From the NCBI RefSeq assembly GCF_035594765.1, contig NC_085843.1:79027971-79091970 (forward strand): DNA of 64,000 bases, read 5' to 3'. Positions within the stretch are counted from its first letter, which is position 1, and every line of letters starts with the position of its first letter. Positions 15,330-55,023 of this stretch are shown in pieces. The notes under the pieces were generated by a model. That model was not told the origin of the DNA. It was given only the letters and a program-made list of their open reading frames with translations, and ran no database searches. A program made the position numbers and the translations under genes. This stretch comes from Anolis carolinensis (taxonomy: Eukaryota).

Positions 15330-15467
15330 GCCACACAGCCTCTGAGGATGCCTGCCATAGATGTGGGCGAAACATCAGGAGAGAATACTTCTGGAACATG
15401 GCCACACAGCCCAAAAGACATACAACAATCCTGTGATCCCGGCCATGAAAGCCTTCGACAACACATA
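15330..15467 (+). mobile_element. Penelope-like element terminal (pLTR) fragment
   Basis: cctctgaggatgcctgccatagatgtgggcgaaacatcaggagagaat...ccatgaaagccttcgacaacac; homologous to 33280-33392 and 53604-53820. Confidence 0.75.
15339..15379 (+). ncRNA. Minimal type-I hammerhead ribozyme motif (Penelope-associated), probably degenerate
   Basis: Stem I CCU/AGG; core CUGAGGA; stem II GCCUGC-loop-GUGGGC; GAAA; cleavage triplet AUC. Confidence 0.7.
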
Positions 15468-39591: not shown

Positions 39592-40211
39592 TAGGCCCCT
39601 TCTACACTGCCATATAAAATCTAGATTGTCAGCTGGATTATATGGCAGTGTAGATTCATATAATCCAGTTCAAAGCAGATAATGTGGATTATCTGCTTTG
39701 ATAACCTGGATTCTATGGCAGTGTAGAAGGGGCCCTAGATGAACAATTATAATTTGCATAGAAGGGGCAAAAGATAACGAGAATGCAGGCTGAATAGAGC
39801 TAATAATTTACATATGTTTCCCAATTTGTTACAAATTCAAACTGTTGGGAGTTTCTAATTGGTTTTAAGAGATTGTCTTCCATAAAACTACTACTGAAAA
39901 GAAATTCTCCAAGGGCCCTTCTACACTGCCATATAATCCAGAATATCAAGGAAGATCCACATTGTCTACTTTGAATTGGAATATCGGAGACCACACTGCC
40001 ATACGATCCAGTTCAAAGCAGAGAATTTGGATTTTATACAGCTGTGTAGAAGGCACCTTAAGCCCCTTCTTCCCTGCCCTGTATCCCAGGATCTGATCCC
40101 AGACTATCTGCTTTAAACTGGATTATATGAGTCTCCACTGCCAAATAATCTGGGATAAGTAGATAATCTGGGATCAGATCCTGGAATATAGAGGCAGTGT
40201 GGAAGGAGTCT
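39592..40211. mobile_element. Cluster of three palindromic Harbinger-like MITEs in intron 1
   Basis: Copies at about 39592-39737, 39911-40040 and 40041-40211. Confidence 0.8.
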
Positions 40212-40736
40212 ATGACAAACTGTTCATAATGTCCATATGATGATTAGTTTAACTAGCAGTATCATTTTCAGGTATTTTAAACTCTTTCAGTCTAAAGACG
40301 TCAATCGATTCCAGTGATAGAAACGAAGGGGTCACTCTACATGTACTTACGTATTTGGATAGTAAATAGAAAGTACAGAGAAGATGAAATACAGCAACCC
40401 TATGAGATGCATTAGGTTGAGCTCCTGGGAAAGATGTTGAGTAGGTTGGGCAAAATTTGAACATTGCCTGTCTTCCAAATTCTTGAGAAATTCCCCACAA
40501 TTTCAAGGAAGTTTCATGAGGTGGGGTATTGGACCTTAAATGTGGTGGTATTGTTGCTATAATTTTGTGCAACTGAAAGAACTAAATTTGCCTCAGTTTA
40601 ATGTGGCACACTGTAATACCCATGAATGCCCTCTTTGTATGCTATAAAGGCCAAAAAGTGTAGGTATAAATGGAGACTGTGTGTCTTATTGTTTCTATCA
40701 ATAAACAGTCCCTATGAATTTTGTTTTCTTGTTTAG

Positions 40737-40808
40737 ATGAGTGACTTTGGACTCAAGAACATGGACCAAGTAGCACCTGTATGCAGTGCTTATAGAGGAC
40801 TGCTCAAG
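40737..40808 (+). CDS. ETS2: ETS2 exon 2 (first coding): MSDFGLKNMDQVAPVCSAYRGLLK
   Basis: tttag|ATG...AAG|gtaagg; matches the ETS2 N-terminus; 72 nt. Confidence 0.95.
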
Positions 40809-41246
40809 GTAAGGCATTAATAAAATTCTCAATAATAGGTAGTTTAATCTTTGCACAAAGCATATCACTTGGATGCATTGCATTTGCAGGTAGTAGAGAG
40901 AGTATGCATTGTGGGAAAACTATTCCATCAGCAGCAATACTTTCCAGTCACTGTGAAAGGAAGGCTGCTTACCTAGTGAATTCAGTGAAACTATAAATGT
41001 TTTAAGATGCGAGAGAAAATAATAGTTAAAGAAATAGGTTTTTTAATTTGTTTATATACTAAAATCTGAATTCTAACCGGACATCTCAGTAAAAGAGTTG
41101 CATAAACTAAACACATTGCTGGAATAGCCAAAGGTTTAATATGGCAATGTTCAAGTTGTATTTGTATATGCAGTTGGATTTTATGTACACCAGAGTAGTA
41201 TTTAATCGAGAGGATGTTAGACTTCAGTTTCCATCATCAGCATGAT

Positions 41247-41493
41247 GGAGCCCTCGGTGGAGTAGTGGATTAAAGCCTTGTGACTTGAAGGTTGGGTTGC
41301 TGACCTGAAGGCTGCCAGGTTCGATTCCCACCCGGGGAGAGCACGGATGAGCTCCCTCGATCAGCTCCATCTCCAAGGATGATAAAAACATCAAAACATC
41401 TGGGCGTCCCCTGGGCAACGTCCTTGCAGACGGCCAATTCTCTCACACCACAAGCGACTCAGGTTGCTCCTGACACACAAAAAAAAAAAAAAA
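41247..41493 (+). mobile_element. Anolis SINE2-like element with internal deletion
   Basis: Poly-A tail; TSD cagcatgatgg (41238-41248, 41495-41505). Confidence 0.88.
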
Positions 41494-41551
41494 CCAGCAT
41501 GATGGGCAGCGTGACCACTGATCACATATGATGAGAAGTGTTATAAAGATA

Positions 41552-42599
41552 CAGTAGATTCTCAGTTAACTGGAAATCAAGAAAATGGAACTCTCAAGCA
41601 ACTGGCAAAAAGTGATACTTTATTATTATTATGTTTTTTTTAAAAAAATTATAATACAGTAAATCAGAAACTCTTGTTACATTAAGTTATATTTGTCTTT
41701 ATTTGCCTTTAATTACTGTATTTCAATATTAATACAAGTCAATATAGAATTTGTGATATGGTATTGTATTAGTTAGGCCTATTTTTAATAGTAACTCTCA
41801 AAAAACCAGAAACTATTGGAAATTGCAACCTTCTTCAGTTATTTGTTATGTATATAATTCAGATTGCTTTCTGTATTGTATATGTGTATATTGGTATGCA
41901 GTTTTCCTTAACTCTTTGTTGTGGGAGAGGCTACAGACCATGTGATCAGAACTGGGATTGTTCAGGACTTAGACTCCATTTTAGATCTCAGACTCAGTTG
42001 GACTTTCAGACTATGAGATATGCTTTGAACTTTGGGTTGTTGGTTATACGAAAGATGTCCTGTGTTACCTACACAGAGAAACTACTTCAAATCTATTTGT
42101 AACTGGATTGATATGCAAAGTGCCTATATGCTGAATACATGAAGTTTGTGAATAAATCAACTATGTTACTTTAAAAGATGTTACTATGCTACTTTTAAAG
42201 ACGTCTACTTCTTTTTGTCTCTTGAGAGCATCATTTAAAGGCAAATATATTTCAAGGGAGATGTTTCTGGGCAACTAAAAGAACATTCCTGAAACTCTAA
42301 TATATATGTGTGTGTGTATTTTGTGCATTGGCATATCTTTGTCTCTAACAGTTCAAAGTGATAACTAGGTACATCAGTTTAACAGCTGAGAAACCTAATT
42401 GTCTTGCATAAATGCCATTTTCCCAAAAGGTTATGGCACAATTTTAAAAAAGATTTTGACTTCTGATAAGGTCAGGTCATGCCTTTCCAAATATCATAAA
42501 ATCTCCAGAAGGTTAAGGAAATTTCCATCTTCCAAAATAAACTATTTTTTATCCCGCATCTACAATCCCCATGGGTGCTGGTTAACTGAGAGTCCACTG
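41552..42599. mobile_element. Tigger-like element with internal insertion
   Basis: TA-flanked TIRs cagtagattctcagttaac / gttaactgagagtccactg. Confidence 0.75.
41844..42350 (+). mobile_element. Possible solo LTR
   Basis: TGTTA...TAACA ends, AATAAA at 42151, short agact repeats; no clean TSD. Confidence 0.4.
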
Positions 42600-44189
42600 T
42601 ATATACAAAATGTTAACTTATAGTTTAAAAACTCAGCTTTGTCTACTTTTGGCATGCATTGACATGATAACGTTATCTATTAAAATCCCACTATGGTTTC
42701 TGTGGTTCACAACTTTGGATTCTTGTCAGTGCTACTTAAAACTCAAAATGTCCAAGGCACTGTTTGCAGAATGTTTTGCAGAAATTGCCCTAACTTAGTA
42801 AGAACTTGTGAAGAGGTTGTATTTCCCCTTAGGCCAGCCACATAATAATATAAATGTAGGCCTTGTAATAGATGCTTATTAACCTGGGCTGTGTTGTACA
42901 CTACGCTCGCTGGCCTGGCCATGTGACAAAGCATATTAGAGGCATAATGGTTGACTCATATCAGCCTTTGGGGCACAGTTCCATCATTGTATGGCTGTTC
43001 CCAGTATTTCAGGATTTCTCAATGAGTGCTATTTTCCACTACTCTTTAGCAATTTTGGCACAGAAAATGAAATTGTGTTGCTCATGAGTTTGGTAGGCTT
43101 TCATGCATGCAGCTATTCAACAGACTCACTATACAGTTTAGTTTCATGTTTTAAAAATGCAGCTTAATGTTTAAAGTACAGTGTCCCTTTTACTCATCCA
43201 TATAAAGCTACATTTTTTCCAGTGACTCAGTGTAAGGGTCACTTATTTATACAAAACACAGGAGTTTCCAGATTATGTTGAAAGAGCTTGGCCTTTCCCC
43301 TAGGTACTGGTGATGACTCATATCTTTTATCTAATAACACTGGGGAAGGGGGGGGGCTATCGTGTGAGAAGGCTAGACAGCTGGCTTATAATTAATCTGA
43401 TGTAACCATTAATCAAGAGAGTTTGGGATCCTTAATGTTGTAGTTTTTATGCCTATATATGAACAGTTTCTTTGTCCTGGGATAAATCATTTTGACTACA
43501 TTACGTTTAGAGTTTCTACTCCTGAAATCAACCATTAGAGATCCTTATCTGAGAAATATATTTTATTCATGTCACCACCTCCATGATCTTTCTTCAAAGA
43601 AGGTGGGGAGTCGGTACAAAACATCCTGAATTGGCAAACAATTCTTGAAATGCTGCTGTCATCACAAAGAAAAACAATGCAGCATGAAACAGTCCTATAC
43701 TTGCATACCTGATAGTAATCCTCTTCAAACTCAGAGAAGCTTACTTGAATAAGCAAGCATGTATGGAGTTACATTGTAAAAGGTTTTTAACAGGGGAACA
43801 CACATAGTATCGGTTGAAAGTCAAACACATTTTTCTTGGTAAAGCCACTTAAACCATTAGCCTCCTAACACGCTACTTACATCTGTTTTTAAACAAATTA
43901 GAAAGTAACTTTAATCCTTTCTCTCAATGGTCCTAGGACTGCAACAAAGATTGTATTGCTGTCTTTTTCCTCCTTGTGTGTCTTAAGTTTTGTTTAACGA
44001 TATTTTACAAACATGTGGCACATCTGTATTAGACATGTTACTGTGCACACAGGTCTTTCTGTGTTCTGATACATTTGTTTGTAAAACATCTGTTTGATTT
44101 TTTTTAAAGAAAACAAATACTTTAAGTATTTATATGTTTTTAAATTTTGTATAATTTTTTTATTAAGTATTGTTAACTGTTTTAAATGC

Positions 44190-44282
44190 GTTGCTTGATT
44201 TTATTGAATTTTGCCAATTCTGTAAGCCGCCTTGAGTCCCCTTGGGTGAGAAAGGTGGGGTAGAAATGTAAATAAATAAATA
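44190..44282 (+). mobile_element. L2-type 3' tail
   Basis: tgtaagccgccttgagtcccc...gtaaataaataaa. Confidence 0.65.
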
Positions 44283-45567
44283 CATTTATAGGTTGAGGTT
44301 TTAATTACAATACAGTCCCTGTATCCATGGGGCATATATTCTAGGACTTTGCATGGATATGCAAAATCATGAGTGATAGGGAACCCTATTGAGCAAACAA
44401 CATCTGGTGGAGTCACATTAGAGGACCTAGGAAATGCCTAGAGGGGATATATTTTGTCAGAAAGGAACTGTGGGTACGGGTCCCACAGATCGTACTGTAT
44501 TCCTGCATGGCAGAGTTTAAACTCAATGGCATTTGTGGTCTCTTCCAGATCTATGACATTAATTGGCCAAAATGGCCATGGTCTCCAAAAGCAATGGTTC
44601 CGAACCTTTGGTCCTCCAGGTGTTTCAACTTTAGCTCCCATAATTCCTAACAGCTGGGATTTCTGGAAGTTGAAGTCCAAAACAACTGGAGGATCAGAGG
44701 TTGGGCACTACTGTCATAGAGCGTTCTTACCCACATGTACCCCATCAGGTTTCAGGTTCTATTAGTAGAAACTAATAAAAATGCACACGAGACTTGGTCA
44801 ACTTACAGTAAGTCTCCTATTGTATGCATATTCACTCACTATAAGGACTTAATGCAGTATTGTAATTATGAGAGCACTGAGACTTTTAGTAAAATTGGTT
44901 TATTATTAGTGTTTGTAAAATAAGACTTTAGATACAATATACTTATTCTAAGCCACTTTCAACCCCATTCTGGGAGAAAAGCAGAGTTCAAATCAAATAT
45001 AAAAATAATGCATACTGATTTGAATAAAAAAAATACCCTTCAACACCCTAGATTTGTATGTGAGGAATTTCTCAACTAAACTATGGAGTTTTAAGGGAAC
45101 CATCAAATCTTTGTATGTGTTTGGCATTATGGAAAATATATAGTTATGTGAAAAGTCTTCTTAATACAGAACATCAATGTTAGAATTCCTTAATGGTGAT
45201 TTGTATAAATATATTGCACAGATTTTTCAAAATATGTTAGAAAATTATCCCTGTGCTAACTAGTAAATGTAATTTAATTCAGAGTATTATGTGGTGTGGT
45301 GGTCTAAGCATTGGACTCTGACTCCAGAGGCCAGGGTTGAATCCCAGCTCAGCCATGGAAATGCACTAGATGACCTTGGACATGTCACCTTCTCTCAGGT
45401 TCAGAGAATGGCCTTCTGAATAAATTTTATGAAGAAAATGCTGTAACAGGTTCACCTTAGGGTCACCATAAGCTGGAAACAACAATCATATTCCACTTTT
45501 TCAGAAGGTATTAAAGTTGTATTGATGTCCTAAAATATATTAAATTGTATTTTTTCTTTATTTTCAG

Positions 45568-45688
45568 CGGCAGCCTGCGTTTGATAGCTTTGAAGGTGCA
45601 AACTCTCTATTCATGGGATACTTTCCCTCCTTAAATGAAGATCAGACACTTCAGGAAGTGCCCACAGGCCTTGACTCTATTTCTTATG
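45568..45688 (+). CDS. ETS2: ETS2 exon 3: RQPAFDSFEGANSLFMGYFPSLNEDQTLQEVPTGLDSISY
   Basis: ttttcag|CGG...TAT G|gtaaat; 121 nt. Confidence 0.96.
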
Positions 45689-45772
45689 GTAAATACTAGT
45701 TTAATAAACATATCAGATCAGATGGTTAAACTAGGTTATTGGAACATATTGGAACCCTAAGTCCCTCTAAGT

Positions 45773-45906
45773 CAGTGGTTCTCAACCTGTGCTCCCCAGA
45801 TGTTTTGACCTTCAACTCTCAGAAACCCCAACAGCTGGTAAACTAGCTGGGATTTCTGGGAGTTGTAGGCCAAAACACGTGGGGACCCACAGGTTGAGAA
45901 CCACTG
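45773..45906. mobile_element. hAT MITE, intron 3
   Basis: cagtggttctcaacctgtg TIRs; TSD ctctaagt/ctctaagc. Confidence 0.9.
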
Positions 45907-47115
45907 CTCTAAGCTTAGAACCATAACTCGTAAGTCATAAGGAATTGAACACGAATTGGCAGGGAACTCAGAGCTTCTACCAGTGTATAGCATCCATTCA
46001 CAAGTGTCAGCAGGAAATGTCTTGATAGAACATATACTTCCTATAATCAATGTCATCTCATCACTCATTCAAAATACGATTAGATGGGCATCTCATCTTA
46101 CTTGTGCTTGTGGCTCCCTCACAAAATGCATTCATTGATTGACTCCATCAATTGAAATCCATAGGGATGCCATTCCAAACAAAGGAAAATTATAGATTAG
46201 ATCAGAACTTGGAAAGTTTTTTTTGTAACTGAAATTCCAAGAATCTCATCAGCGTCTAAGAACTCACTAAAGTCAACCATATTTTGATTGTGCAAAAGAA
46301 TCTTGTAACCCCTTTGAGACTGAGAGAAAAAGTGGCATCAGCTGTTATAGGCTTAAGTTTAATTCATAAGATGCAGAAGCATGTCTCTATGTCTTTGAAT
46401 TATACCAAATTTTAATTAGTTCATTTTAAATGCCAGTACAGCAGTCAGCGAACATTTCTGGTCAAATTGGCTAGGTGTTTAGCCAAGCCTCATTTTCAAC
46501 TTTAAAATTATGGATGAAAGCATATACCAAGGAAAATCTAGTGATTTAAAAATGATTACAATTCTTTATAAGAAAGGCAAACACTTTTTATCATAGAAAG
46601 TATATTGAATTAAAGTAATCAGGAATGAAGGCAGCAGTCCTTTCCTGAAGAATGGCAAAGTTACAGAACAATGTACAAGTAACTGCTGGGTTTATATAAA
46701 TCAACCTGACCCTGTCTTCTTTTAAAGTTTTTCCGGTACTGAAGTGTTTATTTGCCACTTGCAAAGCAAAATAGCCTTCCTAAAATATGCTGTTTGGCTG
46801 TAGTCATTTATCTGGTGATAGGTTTGAAGGATAGGTTCACAAAGCAGCATGAATATTTCAACTACTCTCACTCATCAGCTACCATTCTATTGGATTTATA
46901 AACAGATGAAGCAAGTTACAGTTTAGGGCCTCATTTTATGATGCATCTGTAAATACTTGCCCATCAGACACACTCAAAGACAACAAAAAATCTCTTAAAA
47001 TAATTCATAATTTGGTGGTAGTGTGGTGGGTAATACTATTCAACTTGACATAATATAACCTCCCAGCATATCTCAATTGACCATGTTTATAACATTCAAT
47101 TTTTTTTCTTTTCAG

Positions 47116-47235
47116 AATCAAATAACTGTGAGTTGCCCCTCTTAACTCCAAGCAGTAAAGCGGTGATGAGTCAAGCTTTAAAAGCAACTTTCAGTGGTTT
47201 TACCAAGGAACAGCGCAGATTGGGCATCCCAAGCA
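47116..47235 (+). CDS. ETS2: ETS2 exon 4 (MAPK site PLLTP, start of PNT domain)
   Basis: ttcag|AA TCA...AGC A|gtaagt; (E)[39 protein letters not shown]; 120 nt. Confidence 0.97.
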
Positions 47236-47624
47236 GTAAGTATGTTTTCTTTCTAGTGTACAAGTTTATGCAGATTGAACAGGAGTGAAAATGAGAGTTT
47301 TTGCCATGTAGGCCCGATTTCCTAAACCTGTTGGCCTGACTCTAATGTGAATAAACCCATCGAATCAATAAGTATTGAGTTACCAAGTCCCCATTGATTT
47401 CTTTTCAAGTTGGGATTATTGTCTTGAGAGCATCACTTGCTAGTAATCTTTGTTTATTTGGGTGGGATTCAAACAATTATATTTAGGCTTGTTGCCTGAA
47501 TTGCTTTACTAGAAGCTTCTCCGAAGTATATGAAATCATATAGGGAAAAGGGGTAGCAATAAGCTTCAGTATTTGCTGTAGGAAATTTCCCTTCTAATGT
47601 TAATTGTTCCCTTACTCCCTACAG

Positions 47625-47825
47625 ATCCATGGTTATGGACCCAGCATCAAGTGTATCAATGGCTTCTCTGGGCTACAAATGAATTTAGTTTGACAAATGT
47701 AAACTTTGAAAGGTTTGCCATGAATGGTCAAGAGTTATGCAACCTGGGAAAGGAGCATTTCTTAGAACTGGCACCTGATTATGTGGGTGATATTCTTTGG
47801 GAACATTTGGAGCAGATGATAAAAG
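47625..47825 (+). CDS. ETS2: ETS2 exon 5 (PNT/SAM domain)
   Basis: acag|AT CCA TGG...AAA G|gtaaat; [22 protein letters not shown]...[21 protein letters not shown]; 201 nt. Confidence 0.98.
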
Positions 47826-48425
47826 GTAAATTGCAAAGCCAAAGTGATGTTTTAACATTTATGTGGATAAGCCTTTAAAGGTTTTACAAATATTGGAAAC
47901 TTAATCAAATATCAGAGGGCAATGTTGACATTTGTTAGATTCTTTATCAAAAGGTCCAGGAATGTGGCCGCCTTTCTTTTTGATACATCTTTTATAATCC
48001 TTTATGCCAAATTCCAAAGCCATAGTGTGGAAATTTCTGTGTGCTTTCTATTTGAACAGACCATGGATTGGATCTGAACCTAGCTATGACTTATGTTTGT
48101 ACACAAATATGACTACTTTAAATCCCATTTAGTTTAAAGAGTATGATCATAAGTATGACCAAGTTGGGATTCTAACTCACATGTATTCAAAAGAGAGCAT
48201 TAGTAATATATATTAATTCCTGTGATACAAGTGGAAAGCTAAGAGAATGCTTAAGTGTTCATTTAGATTTCAGACCATTAAAATATATATTTGTGTGATA
48301 ACATTGGACAAGAGAAAGTTCAGTTATAATGTATAATTATAACAAATACATGACGTATTGCATAACATGTCAAAGCAAATTCTCCTAAGCAATTGTAATT
48401 CAAACAATGTTTGGTTTGTTCATAG

Positions 48426-50434: not shown

Positions 50435-50713
50435 GTAAATCTTTATCTTTCTGCCTGTAAGGCAGTAAAAGAAAATCCCACTGTCCAGAGAATTGGAATA
50501 CTATTTTTGGTTGGTTAGTTTGTTGGTTTTTGAATTCCCATCTTCCAGTATCCACTTCTGGTGTTTGACAAACAATTAATTTTCCAACTTCTGCCAATAT
50601 CTCATAAAGAAGGTGCATATTAAGTAAAAGTTACAGCAAAGTAAGCTGCCTTTAGCACATCTGGCTAATTTGGAGTTTAAATTTTGCATTTATTGTCAGA
50701 ACAAAGATTAAAG

Positions 50714-50847
50714 CAGTGGTTCTCAACCTATGGGTCCCCAGGTATTTTGGCTATCCCTCCCAGAAATCCTAGCCAGTTCATCAGCTGTTAGGATTTCTGG
50801 TAGTTGAAAGCTAAAACATTTGGGGACCCACAGGTTGTGAACCACTG
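50714..50847. mobile_element. hAT MITE, intron 8
   Basis: TIRs as 23602; TSD gattaaag/aattaaag. Confidence 0.88.
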
Positions 50848-51100
50848 AATTAAAGTCTAGATTGTTACAGAGAATTCTCTGTATATGAAAGTCAAGTAAA
50901 AAATCACAGTTTGGCAATTGTGTTGTCCTGTTACTTTCTGAAATCATAGTTTCAGATAAAGTTTCTTCAGTTGGAATGAGCATTGAAATGGAACTCCATG
51001 GTATTGCAACTTATAAACACCAGCTGAGAGTGAAAGAAATTGGGAAGCCATTATAAACCATTGTGGTGTTTTTTAAACTCAGAAATTCTAGTAAATTCCT

Positions 51101-51101
<1 letters not shown>

Positions 51102-51150
<49 letters not shown>

Positions 51151-52236
51151 TTTATTCTTATATCCCGCCCCATCTCCCCGAGGGGACTCGGGGCGGCTCA
51201 CAGCAATAATAAAAACAGTGACAAATTACACATTATAAAATCAAACATAAAAAGCAGTCATACAATCAATACATACATCACATGTTAAAAACAAAGAGAT
51301 AAAACAGTTCTAGGCCGAAATAGAGGGCTTCTGTAGCTTCGAGGCAGAAGTACTCAGCAAGGTATCAATAATCATGGCAGAACACTCTCTAATTAAATTA
51401 AATGGGCAGACAAATCAACCCCCAAAAATTAGTCGTCGAAGGCCCTCTGGAAAAGCCAGGTTTTAAGGCTTTTTCGAAAGGCAAGGAGGGTGGGGGCCTG
51501 TCTAATCTCCCTCGGGAGTGAGTTCCAAAGGCGGGGGGCCACAGCGGAGAAGGCCCTCTCTCTCGTCCCCACCAGCCGCAACTGCGAAGGTGGTGGGAGC
51601 GAGAGGAGGGCCTCCCCCGAAGAGCGAAGAGATCGTGCAGGTTCAGGGGGATCGTGCAGGGGGAGATGCGGTCTCTAAGGTAGGTGGGTCCCAAACCGTT
51701 TAGGGCTTTGTAGGTGATAACCTGCACCTTGAATTGGGCCCGGAAAACAAACGGCAGCCAATGGAGCTCCTTAAACAGAGGCGTAGAACGCGCCCTGTAG
51801 TTTGCTCCTGTTAGAAGCCTGGCTGCCGAGCGCTGAACTAATTGCAATTTCCGGGCCGTCTTCAAAGGCAGCCCCACGTAGAGTGCATTGCAATAATCCA
51901 GTCTAGAGGTAACTAAGGCGTGGACCACCGTAGTCAGATCAGACTTCTCGAGGTATGGTCGCAGCTGGCGCACAAGTTTTAATTATGCAAAGGCCCTCCC
52001 GGCCACAGCCAACACCTGGGCCTCAAGCGTCAGCCCCGAATCCAGGAGGATCCCCAAGCTGCGGACCTGCGCCTTCAGGGGGAGTGCAACCCCGTCAAGC
52101 ACAGGTTGCCACCCAATACCCCAATCAGACATACGACTGACTTGGAGGACCTCTGTCTTGTCAGGATTAAGTCTCAGCTTGTTCACCCTCATCCAGGCCA
52201 ACACAGCGGCCAGGCACTGGTCCAGAATCCGAGGGG
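51102..52236 (-). mobile_element. Young 5'-truncated L2 LINE with (AAT)n tail, intron 8
   Basis: ORFs WMRVNKLRLNPDKTEVL and LRPYL...VHALVTSRLDYCNALYVGLP...ELHWLP; CpG-rich. Confidence 0.93.
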
Positions 52237-52474
52237 CTTTATACTATGTATAAACTTTTACTCCTGACAAATTCTGGTACAAGGTTTAGCCTTTTAACCA
52301 GGGGTCCCCAAACTTTTTAAACTGGGGGCCAGTTTAATGTCCCTCAGACTGTTGGAGGGCCGGACTATAGTTTTTTAAAAAACTACGAACAAATGTATAT
52401 GCACACTGCACATATCTTATGAGCCTGCTTTTGGCTAATAAGATGGTCAATGTCTGGTTCCATATTTGATCCCC

Positions 52475-52646
52475 CAGGCAGGAATCAGCCAGGCCTCAAA
52501 GCTGCAAGGCTTTTCAATATTAATCAAGGTGGTCAATTGAAACATTCACATTGGCCTTTAACAGAGAAGAGTTTTTTTCTCCCACCCTGGACCTTCCACA
52601 GATATATAAACCTTCCTTGCCTAGTTTCCAACAGACCTCACAGCTT
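52475..52646 (+). mobile_element. Penelope pLTR upstream part (with TATA-like ATATATAAA)
   Basis: Ends in tagtttccaacagacctcacagc, the sequence that precedes the hammerhead at 33280-33303. Confidence 0.55.
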
Positions 52647-52788
52647 CAAAGAAATTTAGCAATGTGTTTCCTTTAGGAATACTGCTGTATGACTACTATT
52701 ACAACAGCAGCAGCAGCAACAACAACAAATACTAATAATAGTATTTTAAATGTATGATAAAGCTCAACTCACTATTTCTCTTTTTTCA

Positions 52789-53113
52789 GAGGCCCCTTCC
52801 ACACAGCCCTATATCCCAGAATATCAAGGCAGAAAATCCCACATTATCTGAGTGTGGACTCAGATAACCCAGTTCAAAGCAGATATTGTGGGATTTTCTG
52901 CCTTGATATTTTGGAATATAGGGCTGTGTGGAAGGGCCTGTAATATGTGAAGAAAGGTGACTTAGGCCCCTTCCACACAGCTGTATAAAATCCCACATTA
53001 TTTGCTTTGAACTGGGTTATATGCCAGTGTGGACCCAGATAACCCAGTTCAAAGCAGATATTGTGGATTATCTGCCTTGATATTGTGGGTCACATGGCTG
53101 TGTGGAAGGGCCC
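52789..53113. mobile_element. Two near-perfect palindromic Harbinger-like MITEs (52789-52938, 52965-53113)
   Basis: ggccccttccacacagc...gctgtgtggaagggcc; the second has TTA TSD. Confidence 0.85.
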
Positions 53114-53603
53114 TTAGTGGCTAAATGCATTGCGTAATTATAGCAGAGTGATGTCACTTTACCTGCCTTGGTTCCATCCTATGAAACACTGGGATCTATA
53201 GTTTGGTTTATAACCATTTCCCATGTTGATCACCTTTGCCTGGACACCTCCACTGTGTCAATATACTGCATTTCCTGGATTGACTTACTAGAAGCAGCTT
53301 TGTTTAACCCAGTCTGGGAAAGACGCCTGTGGCTTTTGTGGCTTTCCCCCAAAAGTTTGATTTCATATTATTTTGTTTTATCCTATTTTCCCTTGCAGTT
53401 TTTATATTAATTTTCAACTTTTAATTTCCTCTTAATCTATTGCAGTGTGGGAGGAGAATTGTATAATTATGTTATACAACCAATTTTAAATTACTTTATA
53501 GCAATTTTTGACATGCTAAATGCCCCTAGTTGATTCCTGTCTGATATGGGTTGAAATTCTGTGTTCTTCTTGAATTGGAAGGCTTTTAGTGATTGTTAGG
53601 AAA

Positions 53604-53820
53604 GGTTGTTGTGAGTTTTACAGCCTGTCTGGCTATGCTCCAGAAGCATTCTCCCCTGACATTTCACCCACATCTATGGCAGGCATCCTCAGAGCCTCTG
53701 AGGATGCCTGCCATAGATGTGGGTGAAATGTCAGGACAGAATGCTTCTGGAGCATGGCCAGACAGCCCGGAAAACTCACAGCAGCCCAGTGATCCCAGCC
53801 ATGAAAGCCTTCAAAACAAT
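53604..53820. mobile_element. Head-to-head inverted Penelope pLTR pair with two hammerhead motifs
   Basis: Arms 53604-53694 and 53696-53786 around a single C; hammerhead at 53695-53735 (+) and 53655-53694 (-). Confidence 0.85.
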
Positions 53821-54299
53821 GTTTGTCTTGATGACTGAAGCAGCGGGTGGGGGAGGGACTTAGGGGCCCAATCGCCATTCTCCTTTTCCTCTCCTTTCTT
53901 CCTCATCTTCCAAAGCGGCGGGCAGAGGAGGGCCCGCTCGTCGTTGTCCTCCTATTCCTATTCCTCTCCTGCCTTCTCTTCCAAAGCGATGGTGGAGGCT
54001 GCTTCGGGAGAAGAGGAAGGAAGGCGAGGAAAAGGAGGAGAGCGAGCAGGTCCTAAAGTCCCTCCTCCGCTCGCCTGCTGCCAAGCCAGCAGAAGCAGCA
54101 CCGCTTAAGAAGAAGCAGTACAGTAGCAGCAGCAGCCTTCCTCCTCTTGGCTGTTCCTCCCTCCCGCCCAGGGTAGGCCGCGGGCCGGATAGATGGCCTC
54201 AGAGGGCCTCATGTGGCCCGCGGGCCTTAGTTTGGGGACCCCTGCTTTTAACAGTAATATGTGTAGTATTCTACTATTCTAAGTGGTATTTTTCATGTA

Positions 54300-54944
54300 C
54301 AGTGTTCCCCCGCTACTTTGCGGTTGGCTTATTACAGATTTCCTGTTTCGCAGGAAAAATGATTTTTTATTTATTTACCCTGCTGCTTCTCCTCAGGGCT
54401 GCCTCTTCCAGGGAAGAAGGAATGCCGCTCCGCTCGGTGAGTGAGCGAGGGTGGGTGGGTGAGAGAGTGAGGGTATGCGGCAGCGGCAGAAGAAGAGTGT
54501 GGAAGAGGCGGCCAGGCTCCTCTTCTTCCGCTGCTCCAACTGGCCATGCCAGGAAACGTGGAGGATCGGAAGAGAGAGTGGGACAAGTGGAGGACTCCGC
54601 CTCATCTTCCAAGTCCTCCACGTTTCCCGGCATGGCCGGCTGGAGCAGCAGCAGAAGAGGAGTCTGGCCGCCTCTTCCAGGCTCTTCTGCCGCTGCTGCC
54701 ACCCACCCTCACTCTCACCCACCCTCCCTCCCTCACTCACTGAGTGGAGCGGCATTCTTTCTTATCTGGTAAAGGCAGCCAGAGCAACATGGCAGGGCCG
54801 AAGCAAGGGAGCAGCCCTGAGGAGGAGAAGCAGCAGCAATGGGGTAAATAAAATAATGTATAAATATTAAAATTAAAATAGCGTCCCTACTTGTATCGTG
54901 GGTGGTCCTGGAATGTAGCCCCTGCGATAAGTGAGGGAACACTG
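54300..54944. mobile_element. Tc1/mariner-type MITE with large internal GC-rich inverted repeat
   Basis: TA-flanked cagtgttccc / gggaacactg; internal fold-back about 54365-54855. Confidence 0.85.
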
Positions 54945-55023
54945 TACATGTTGTGCATGCATGTGTGTGAGAGAGACAGAGGGAATGAGTTATGCTTTGA
55001 CAACCTTCTCTTGATCTTTACAG

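What the first reader, a model, noticed from the sequence alone, without database searches (positions are those of the whole stretch)
53604..53786. Back-to-back hammerhead ribozyme palindrome in the ETS2 pre-mRNA
Seen: two 91-bp Penelope arms inverted around one base, each with CUGAGGA-stem II-GAAA-UGUC-AGG. A transcript of either strand therefore carries a ribozyme preceded by its own antisense. Both arms share variants (GGGT, ATGT) that together are absent from the other two copies, suggesting copying or conversion between arms. Known: Penelope insertions often create inverted pLTRs. Inference: a self-silenced ribozyme tolerated in an intron and a long dsRNA substrate for ADAR/Dicer. The G-U stem II closure and missing stem III make monomer activity doubtful.
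Basis: partly seen in the sequence, partly recalled or inferred. Interest (0 to 1): 0.7.

Follow-up and report, generated by a model that had tools for sequence, protein, structure and literature searches.

The report
Penelope palindrome riding a hAT transposon
The palindrome is a real back-to-back scrap of a very common lizard retrotransposon that sits inside a 1.9-kb DNA transposon found at 40 places in the genome, one of them this ETS2 intron; its two ribozyme motifs are damaged and predicted to be locked in a hairpin, so it is likely an inert passenger, not an ETS2 control element.

Summary
In detail: two 91-bp arms (83 of 91 complementary) around base 53695, each with a minimal hammerhead core, in an ETS2 intron. 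It is not special to ETS2. It lies inside a 1,946-bp non-autonomous hAT transposon (52299-54244; hAT-HT2-type terminal repeats, 8-bp target duplication) present at 40 loci. Head-to-head pairs are a routine product of this Penelope/Poseidon family: at least 2,164 short-spacer junctions genome-wide; 47 of 49 sampled have one tailed and one tail-less arm, as here. The shared variants are CpG transitions (6% of all copies carry both); ATGT was inherited from the carrier's founder, and left-arm GGGT is in only 13 of 34 two-armed sisters. Arm-to-arm conversion does show in two sister copies. Both cores have lost the G-C closing stem II, the ACGU dimer palindrome and distal stem I, fold into a -161 kcal/mol hairpin, and the intact family ribozyme is reported to cut only with the element's protein. 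Editing and small RNA could not be tested. Side result: junction geometry favours two separately primed cDNAs joined head to head. Ordinary; interest 0.2.

The parts
53604..53694 (-). Left, tail-less arm of a head-to-head Penelope/Poseidon (PAc-type) stub; hammerhead on the minus strand, antisense in ETS2 pre-mRNA
53695..53695 (.). One-base centre where the 5' ends of the two arms meet
53696..53786 (+). Right arm; hammerhead in the sense of ETS2 pre-mRNA
53695..53735 (+). Minimal hammerhead core: stem I CCU 53695-97 / AGG 53733-35, CUGAGGA 53698-704, extra U 53705, stem II 53706-11 / 53719-24 (G10.1-U11.1 instead of G-C), GAAA 53725-28, UGUC 53729-32 (family form CGUC), predicted cut after 53732
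   Evidence: sequence; numbering and dimer design from PMC4209133; position of ATG and cut site fit PMC11167929
53655..53695 (-). Mirror hammerhead core with the same two CpG transitions and only 2 bp of stem I
53787..53812 (+). Decayed 'tail' present on the right arm only (end approximate)
52299..54244 (+). Carrier: 1,946-bp non-autonomous hAT DNA transposon with captured interior, 40 loci in the genome
52299..52314 (+). Left 16-bp terminal inverted repeat, same letters as hAT-HT2N1_AC in Table 1 of PMC3014272
54229..54244 (-). Right 16-bp terminal inverted repeat
52291..52298 (+). Left copy of the 8-bp target site duplication CTTTTAAC
54245..54252 (+). Right copy of the 8-bp target site duplication CTTTTAAC
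50435..55023 (+). ETS2 intron (GT..AG) that hosts the carrier

Best explanation
The palindrome is a 5'-truncated, head-to-head Penelope/Poseidon insertion that sits as cargo in a 1.9-kb non-autonomous hAT transposon with 40 copies in the genome, one of them in this ETS2 intron, where it is likely inert. Shown: arms, tail asymmetry, carrier ends, target duplication, copy number, inherited variants. Inferred order: (1) one Penelope insertion event made both arms from the same donor sequence, likely by priming cDNA from both nicked target strands at the two known start sites (one with tail, one without) and joining the two cDNA 3' ends at the front of the hammerhead; (2) the stub aged (arms differ at 9 of 91 sites in the majority of carrier copies) and was captured with its neighbouring DNA between hAT-HT2-type ends; (3) a hAT transposase in trans spread the composite, recently also into ETS2 (nearest sister differs at 10 of 1,726 sites outside the arms). 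In the pre-mRNA the antisense arm is made first and is predicted to pair with the sense arm into a 91-bp hairpin, so no hammerhead would fold; the cores are also damaged and the element's protein is needed for cutting. The hairpin may be A-to-I edited like any intronic inverted repeat and would leave with the spliced intron.
For: Same palindrome with the same 1.3-kb and 0.45-kb flanks at other loci; 41 matches at 40 loci for the non-Penelope flank; exact 8-bp duplications at 29 of 40 copies, 3 more with one mismatch, 8 not scorable; terminal repeat as in PMC3014272 Table 1. At least 2,164 head-to-head junctions with up to 30 nt between among about 40,000-48,000 hammerhead copies; 13 head-to-head and 0 tail-to-tail neighbours within 1 kb among the first 100 sites. 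Exactly one tailed arm in 47 of 49, 28 of 29 and 9 of 11 long-spacer loci; target duplications of 8 bp or more in 32 of 43 scorable, 1.1 in shuffles. T at arm site 34 in both arms of 34 of 34 two-armed carriers; left-arm T29 in 13 of 34. Hairpin -161 kcal/mol against -14.5 for the sense core alone. PAc hammerhead shows no cleavage without protein and no RNA-seq reads end at its cut site (PMC11167929).
Against: The right carrier junction appears at about single-copy depth in contigs of 4 of 4 studies laid (only 22 letters lie on the element side, below the tool's 31-letter rule), so the insertion may be common or fixed and was not shown to be neutral. Left-arm T29 needs 7 parsimony steps against at most 4 at 52 other CpG half-sites, which hints at repeated conversion toward the right arm, possibly in the ETS2 lineage too (the young part of the tree is poorly resolved). 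No target duplication was found for the founder Penelope insertion inside the carrier and no donor locus without hAT ends turned up among the 40 loci. Family identity rests on fit to the published description, not on alignment to the Repbase sequence (one search found none in the held supplements); the endonuclease-like frame in L157 had no Pfam match.
Confidence: 0.87

Rival explanations
1. Self-silenced ribozyme: a sense hammerhead would cut ETS2 pre-mRNA, and the copy is tolerated because its antisense arm masks it.
For: The hairpin would mask the core; the antisense arm is transcribed first; catalytic letters CUGAGGA and GAAA are intact.
Against: No masking is needed: the intact family ribozyme is reported inactive without PAc protein, minimal hammerheads need a dimer partner, and these cores lost G10.1-C11.1, the ACGU palindrome and distal stem I. 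Inverted partners come with the insertion (47 of 49 one-tailed pairs, mostly inside one target duplication), and this one came in a carrier at 40 loci. 6 of 40 sisters lost one or both arms.
Confidence: 0.04
2. The hairpin has been co-opted as a regulatory double-stranded RNA in ETS2 (editing substrate, nuclear retention signal or source of small RNAs against the tens of thousands of Poseidon copies), kept in shape by arm-to-arm conversion.
For: 40-bp perfect inner stem; conversion tracts in sisters L068 and L064; possible repeated gain of T29; junction present in 4 of 4 studies with the caveat above; Penelope elements yield small RNAs in rotifers and flies (PMC3846280 passages).
Against: The ETS2 copy still carries 8 of the 9 founder mismatches; inner-arm change rates (0.24 and 0.15 steps per non-CpG site) are like the left flank's 0.25; it is one of thousands of like hairpins, so any small-RNA role would be collective, not this copy's.
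Confidence: 0.07
3. Alternative origin of the head-to-head layout (does not change the verdict on ETS2): one strand folds back and primes its own copy, and the endonuclease later trims the tail from either arm.
For: Proposed in print as self-priming (PMC3846280) and endonuclease resolution of the tail (PMC8557442); about 20 of 46 junctions show microhomology of 2 nt or more, many fitting a small fold-back at stem I; copying one arm from the other explains shared variants.
Against: The arm that runs further at the inner junction is tail-less in 23 and tailed in 22 of 46 (6 are ambiguous), whereas plain fold-back needs the tailed arm to be the longer; 1-nt blunt centres, as here and at 9 of 29 independent loci, leave no loop; the two tail ends are the two RT start sites and both strands are extended in vitro.
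Confidence: 0.3

Closest known systems
PAc / Poseidon_Ac Penelope-like element of Anolis carolinensis (PMC11167929)
   Same: Hammerhead at the pLTR-ORF junction, ATG at the start of stem II, cut site 26 nt after the start codon, tail ending about 111-118 nt into the ORF; very high copy number.
   Different: Here only ~91 and ~120 nt stubs, head to head, with two CpG transitions in the core and no distal stem I; carried by a DNA transposon. Not aligned to the Repbase sequence.
Inverted pLTR plus one-sided tail layout of endonuclease-bearing Penelope-like elements (PMC8557442, PMC3846280)
   Same: Inverted 5'-truncated copy next to the 5' end, tail on one end only, target duplication.
   Different: Truncated so far that only the two ends remain; target duplication of the founder no longer visible; asymmetry counted here (47 of 49 one-tailed, 0 both-tailed).
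Minimal dimer-type hammerheads of metazoan Penelope-like elements (PMC4209133)
   Same: Long stem II, extra base between 9 and 10.1, short stem I, no own stem III.
   Different: G10.1-C11.1 changed to G-U and the palindromic 15.2-16.2 pair changed to U-G; partners face each other on opposite strands and cannot form the tandem dimer on one transcript.
Non-autonomous hAT families of the anole with hAT-HT2 ends, and composite hobo-N families carrying Penelope pieces (PMC3014272)
   Same: 16-bp terminal repeat CAGGGGTCCCCAAACT, 8-bp target duplication with central TA bias, captured host DNA with nested repeats, low divergence.
   Different: No family of 1.95 kb with this terminal repeat is in Table 1 (listed: 732-1,485 bp, autonomous 2,246 bp); cargo includes a complete head-to-head hammerhead palindrome. 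Repbase and Dfam were not checked.
Twin priming of LINE-1 5' inversions (recalled; seen only as search listings)
   Same: Two cDNAs primed from opposite target strands and joined at their 3' ends.
   Different: In the Penelope case the two arms duplicate the same sequence and start at two fixed sites about 33 nt apart.

Membership tests
Penelope/Poseidon (PAc) element | Hammerhead at the pLTR-ORF junction with ATG at stem II and cut site 26 nt downstream | tested here: met
   Sequence against the description
Penelope/Poseidon (PAc) element | Optional 30-40 bp tail on one end only | tested here: met
   Right arm tailed, left not; 47 of 49 family loci
Penelope/Poseidon (PAc) element | Linked RT plus C-terminal GIY-YIG ORF in longer family members | tested here: inconclusive
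   A 153-aa frame upstream of the pLTR in L157 looks like a GIY-YIG domain by recalled motifs but has no Pfam match; no full-length copy was fetched
Penelope/Poseidon (PAc) element | Sequence identity to the Repbase consensus Poseidon_Ac | not testable with these tools
   Held supplements of PMC11167929 gave 0 matches
Penelope/Poseidon (PAc) element | Target site duplication around the inverted unit | tested here: inconclusive
   Not found for this copy's founder (longest match 4 nt); present in 32 of 43 independent loci
Active minimal hammerhead | Catalytic core C3-U-G-A-N-G8-A9 and G12-A-A-A15.1 ... U16.1-C17 | tested here: met
Active minimal hammerhead | G10.1-C11.1 pair closing stem II | tested here: not met
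   G-U in both arms; pair called highly conserved in PMC4209133
Active minimal hammerhead | Palindromic 15.2-16.2 for the dimer's stem III, and a same-strand partner | tested here: not met
   AUGU instead of ACGU; the partner is on the opposite strand
Active minimal hammerhead | Core free to fold in its transcript | tested here: not met
   Predicted only: whole core paired in a 91-bp hairpin
Active minimal hammerhead | Measured self-cleavage | not testable with these tools
   Needs a bench assay
Non-autonomous hAT DNA transposon (hAT-HT2 ends) | Short terminal inverted repeats beginning CAG, as hAT-HT2 | tested here: met
Non-autonomous hAT DNA transposon (hAT-HT2 ends) | 8-bp target site duplication, different at each locus | tested here: met
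   Exact in 29 of 40, one mismatch in 3, 8 not scorable
Non-autonomous hAT DNA transposon (hAT-HT2 ends) | Dispersed copies with the same ends and no transposase frame | tested here: met
   40 loci; no frame over 112 aa lies wholly within 52299-54244
Non-autonomous hAT DNA transposon (hAT-HT2 ends) | Autonomous partner with the same ends in this genome | not tested
   Reported for the green anole in PMC3014272; not searched here
microRNA precursor (mir-2041, mir-1295 Rfam hits) | Score at the family's gathering threshold | tested here: not met
   58.7 of 70 and 56.2 of 100 bits, matches on both strands as for any perfect hairpin

The most novel reading that the evidence does not exclude
The thousands of back-to-back stubs of which this is one record how Penelope-like elements insert: a protein dimer primes cDNA from both nicked target strands on one RNA, one copy starting at each end of the tail, and the two cDNAs are joined head to head, often stalling just in front of the hammerhead. 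That would explain the inverted pLTR, the strictly one-sided tail and the variants shared by both arms, and it makes the anole genome a source of thousands of near-perfect intronic RNA hairpins, some multiplied further by DNA transposons.
Probability: 0.55. Interest if true: 0.5.

Novelty: new member of a known kind. Interest (0 to 1): 0.2.

Why it matters
For ETS2 it most likely does not matter. It is a clean example of one transposon's debris being amplified by another, and the 40 sister copies give a small natural experiment on palindrome conversion and deletion. The family-wide counts (one-sided tail, even split of the longer inner arm) bear on an open point: how Penelope-like elements make their inverted ends, called 'still undefined' in PMC8557442; an in vitro system that could test it exists (PMC11167929).

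Tried and rejected
Rfam: no hammerhead match; miRNA hits below threshold. Independent Penelope insertion into ETS2: rejected, flanks shared with 39 other loci. Shared GGGT/ATGT as proof of local conversion: rejected as stated. Sequencing runs: no RNA holder listed; runs guessed as RNA were contigs only and cannot show editing, ends, strand or level; the two A>G differences listed for X19 and X18 are also in the DNA run X2; no verdict on editing or small RNA. Empty-site allele: none among the joints shown, but 232 joints were not shown; no verdict. Second carrier as a hobo-N family: no hobo terminal repeat within 1.5 kb in 20 of 20 loci. Full-length element by a tail pattern: 9 hits, not pursued. 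Pfam on the L157 frame: no match. Repbase sequence in supplements: not found in 3 files held as text, other files may hold it. Genome-wide orientation test: not possible, no gene annotation on hand. Earlier findings by sequence and by words: nothing. Literature searches for a twin-priming account of Penelope inversions and for Penelope-derived anole miRNAs listed none; the library lacks most subscription papers.

Full report
Observation. The palindrome is as described: arms 53604-53694 and 53696-53786, one base between, 83 of 91 positions complementary, the inner 40 perfect. It folds at -161 kcal/mol; with flanks z = -19.7 and 0 of 200 shuffles fold as well. Each arm carries CUGAGGA-U-stem II-GAAA-UGUC-AGG. 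The flanking exons belong to ETS2 on the + strand (34 of 35 residues identical to PDB 4bqa; the last exon alone does not separate ETS1 from ETS2), and the intron runs 50435-55023. Rfam has no hammerhead match here.

The element. The motif fits the described PAc/Poseidon element of the green anole: ORF start at stem II, cut site 26 nt after the start codon, reverse transcription starting at two sites that bound a 'tail' about 111-118 nt into the ORF (PMC11167929; I read parts 1-2 of 4 of the text, passages; a search of three held supplement files found no sequence). The genome holds 40,218 exact copies of a 22-mer of the core and 48,386 of a 23-mer with CpG sites left free. A frame upstream of the pLTR in L157 looks like a GIY-YIG endonuclease by recall but matched no Pfam family.

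The carrier. A search for the exact kind of centre gave 70 loci, 50 listed; I examined all 50. 21 of 50, the window included, share both flanks with the ETS2 copy. A search with the non-Penelope flank gave 41 matches at 40 loci, all fetched. The shared unit is 52299-54244, bounded by CAGGGGTCCCCAAACT inverted repeats and an 8-bp duplication (CTTTTAAC here); duplications are exact at 29 of 40 copies, one letter off at 3, not scorable at 8. The terminal repeat is that of hAT-HT2 non-autonomous families, and anole hAT elements are known to carry nested repeats including Penelope pieces (PMC3014272; passages and part 1 of 2 of the hAT section); no 1.95-kb family with this end is in its Table 1. 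Eleven of twelve other elements with the same first 34 bases share only the ends. The ETS2 copy belongs to the young group: 10 of 1,726 sites differ from its nearest sister outside the arms (2 of 40 rows dropped for low cover), while the arms differ from each other at 9 of 91 sites in most copies. So the palindrome was old when the carrier brought it to ETS2.

Shared variants. GGGT and ATGT are both C-to-T changes at CpG; 2,906 of 48,386 copies carry both. In the carrier, T at arm site 34 is in both arms of 34 of 34 two-armed copies, and the left arm has T29 in only 13 of 34. Arms of independent insertions also share rare letters: 28 shared pairs against 11.6 expected in 44 of 49 loci kept, 8 against 1.7 in 28 loci, as expected if both arms come from one donor. 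Conversion does occur: L068 and L064 show tracts copied from right to left. For T29 the case is open: 7 parsimony steps against at most 4 at 52 other CpG half-sites, on a tree poorly resolved among young copies.

Head-to-head pairs are routine. At least 2,164 junctions have up to 30 nt between the cores. Among the first 100 sites, neighbours within 1 kb are head to head 13 times and tail to tail never. I fetched the 50 places listed as 49 loci: 47 have exactly one tailed arm, none both, two none; 32 of 43 scorable have a target duplication of 8 bp or more, 1.1 in shuffles. The earlier set gave 28 of 29, long-spacer loci 9 of 11, with one both-tailed and one complex. The layout is known (PMC8557442 and PMC3846280, passages). 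The arm that runs further at the inner junction is tail-less in 23 and tailed in 22 of 46 (six are ambiguous), and 1-nt centres occur at 9 of 29 independent loci. With the report that PAc extends both target strands from two start sites, this favours two separately primed cDNAs joined at their 3' ends over plain fold-back; fold-back followed by trimming of a tail is not excluded. Three searches listed no paper that states this model; other unreviewed notes of this scan reached the same idea, which is not independent support.

Ribozyme and RNA. Minimal Penelope hammerheads lack their own stem III by design, need a same-strand partner and cut poorly; G10.1-C11.1 and a palindromic 15.2-16.2 are conserved (PMC4209133; parts 1-2 of 4 read). 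Both features are changed here, distal stem I is cut off by the junction, and the minus-strand core keeps 2 bp of stem I. The intact PAc ribozyme is reported to cut only with PAc protein, with no RNA-seq reads ending at the site. The hairpin outweighs the core's own fold by over 140 kcal/mol. Cleavage of ETS2 pre-mRNA is therefore unlikely with or without the antisense arm. Editing is plausible for any such intronic hairpin (general knowledge) but the available runs were contigs and gave no verdict. Contigs at about single-copy depth carry the right carrier junction in four studies, with 22 letters on the element side: the insertion may be widespread; an empty allele was neither seen nor excluded.

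Verdict. A real, ordinary Penelope stub, cargo of a not previously listed member of a known kind of hAT element; no sign of an ETS2-specific role. Interest 0.2. The part worth keeping is the family-wide junction geometry as a testable account of Penelope's inverted ends.

Noticed in passing
L074, L075, L076, L077, L078, L081, L082, L086-L091: A second multi-copy carrier with a hAT-like end (CAGGGCCGGCCC, close to the hAT-N6/7/8 terminal repeat in PMC3014272) holds a single, tail-less Penelope stub with the same GGGT, ATGT, GAGCAT and CCAGAC letters as the ETS2 arms: 13 of the 20 loci fetched. Suggests an older shared donor lineage.
   Followed up: partly
L068 and L064 (arm sites 41-75 and 61-75); L066: Right-to-left arm conversion tracts in sister carriers: L068's left arm has the right arm's derived AC at 41-42, L064's has an A at 66 shared with its own and L065's right arm.
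   Followed up: yes
L055, L060, L063, L066, L070, L071: 6 of 40 carrier copies lost one or both arms; five have a breakpoint within about 25 bp of the palindrome centre. Not tested for significance.
   Followed up: partly
window 52576-52645: A separate fragment of the Penelope pLTR (the part just upstream of the hammerhead) lies in the same carrier, 1 kb from the palindrome.
   Followed up: no
window 54300-54944: A second non-autonomous DNA transposon in the same intron, TA-flanked, with ends like TcMar-N9/N11/N16 of PMC3014272 and long inner inverted repeats.
   Followed up: no
window 51398-52243, minus strand: Two adjoining frames that look like a broken non-LTR reverse transcriptase fragment (by recall), also in this intron; high copy.
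   Followed up: no
L141-L152: 146 exact matches to the carrier's first 34 bases; 11 of 12 fetched are sibling elements (355-1,107 bp where the far end was seen) that share only the ends and have other interiors.
   Followed up: partly
L047 and L050: Two head-to-head stubs at different places share both flanks, so a third carrier or a duplication is likely.
   Followed up: no
window 15331-15456 and 33294-33393: Two solo Penelope stubs on the + strand, one tailed and one not, both truncated just upstream of the hammerhead.
   Followed up: partly
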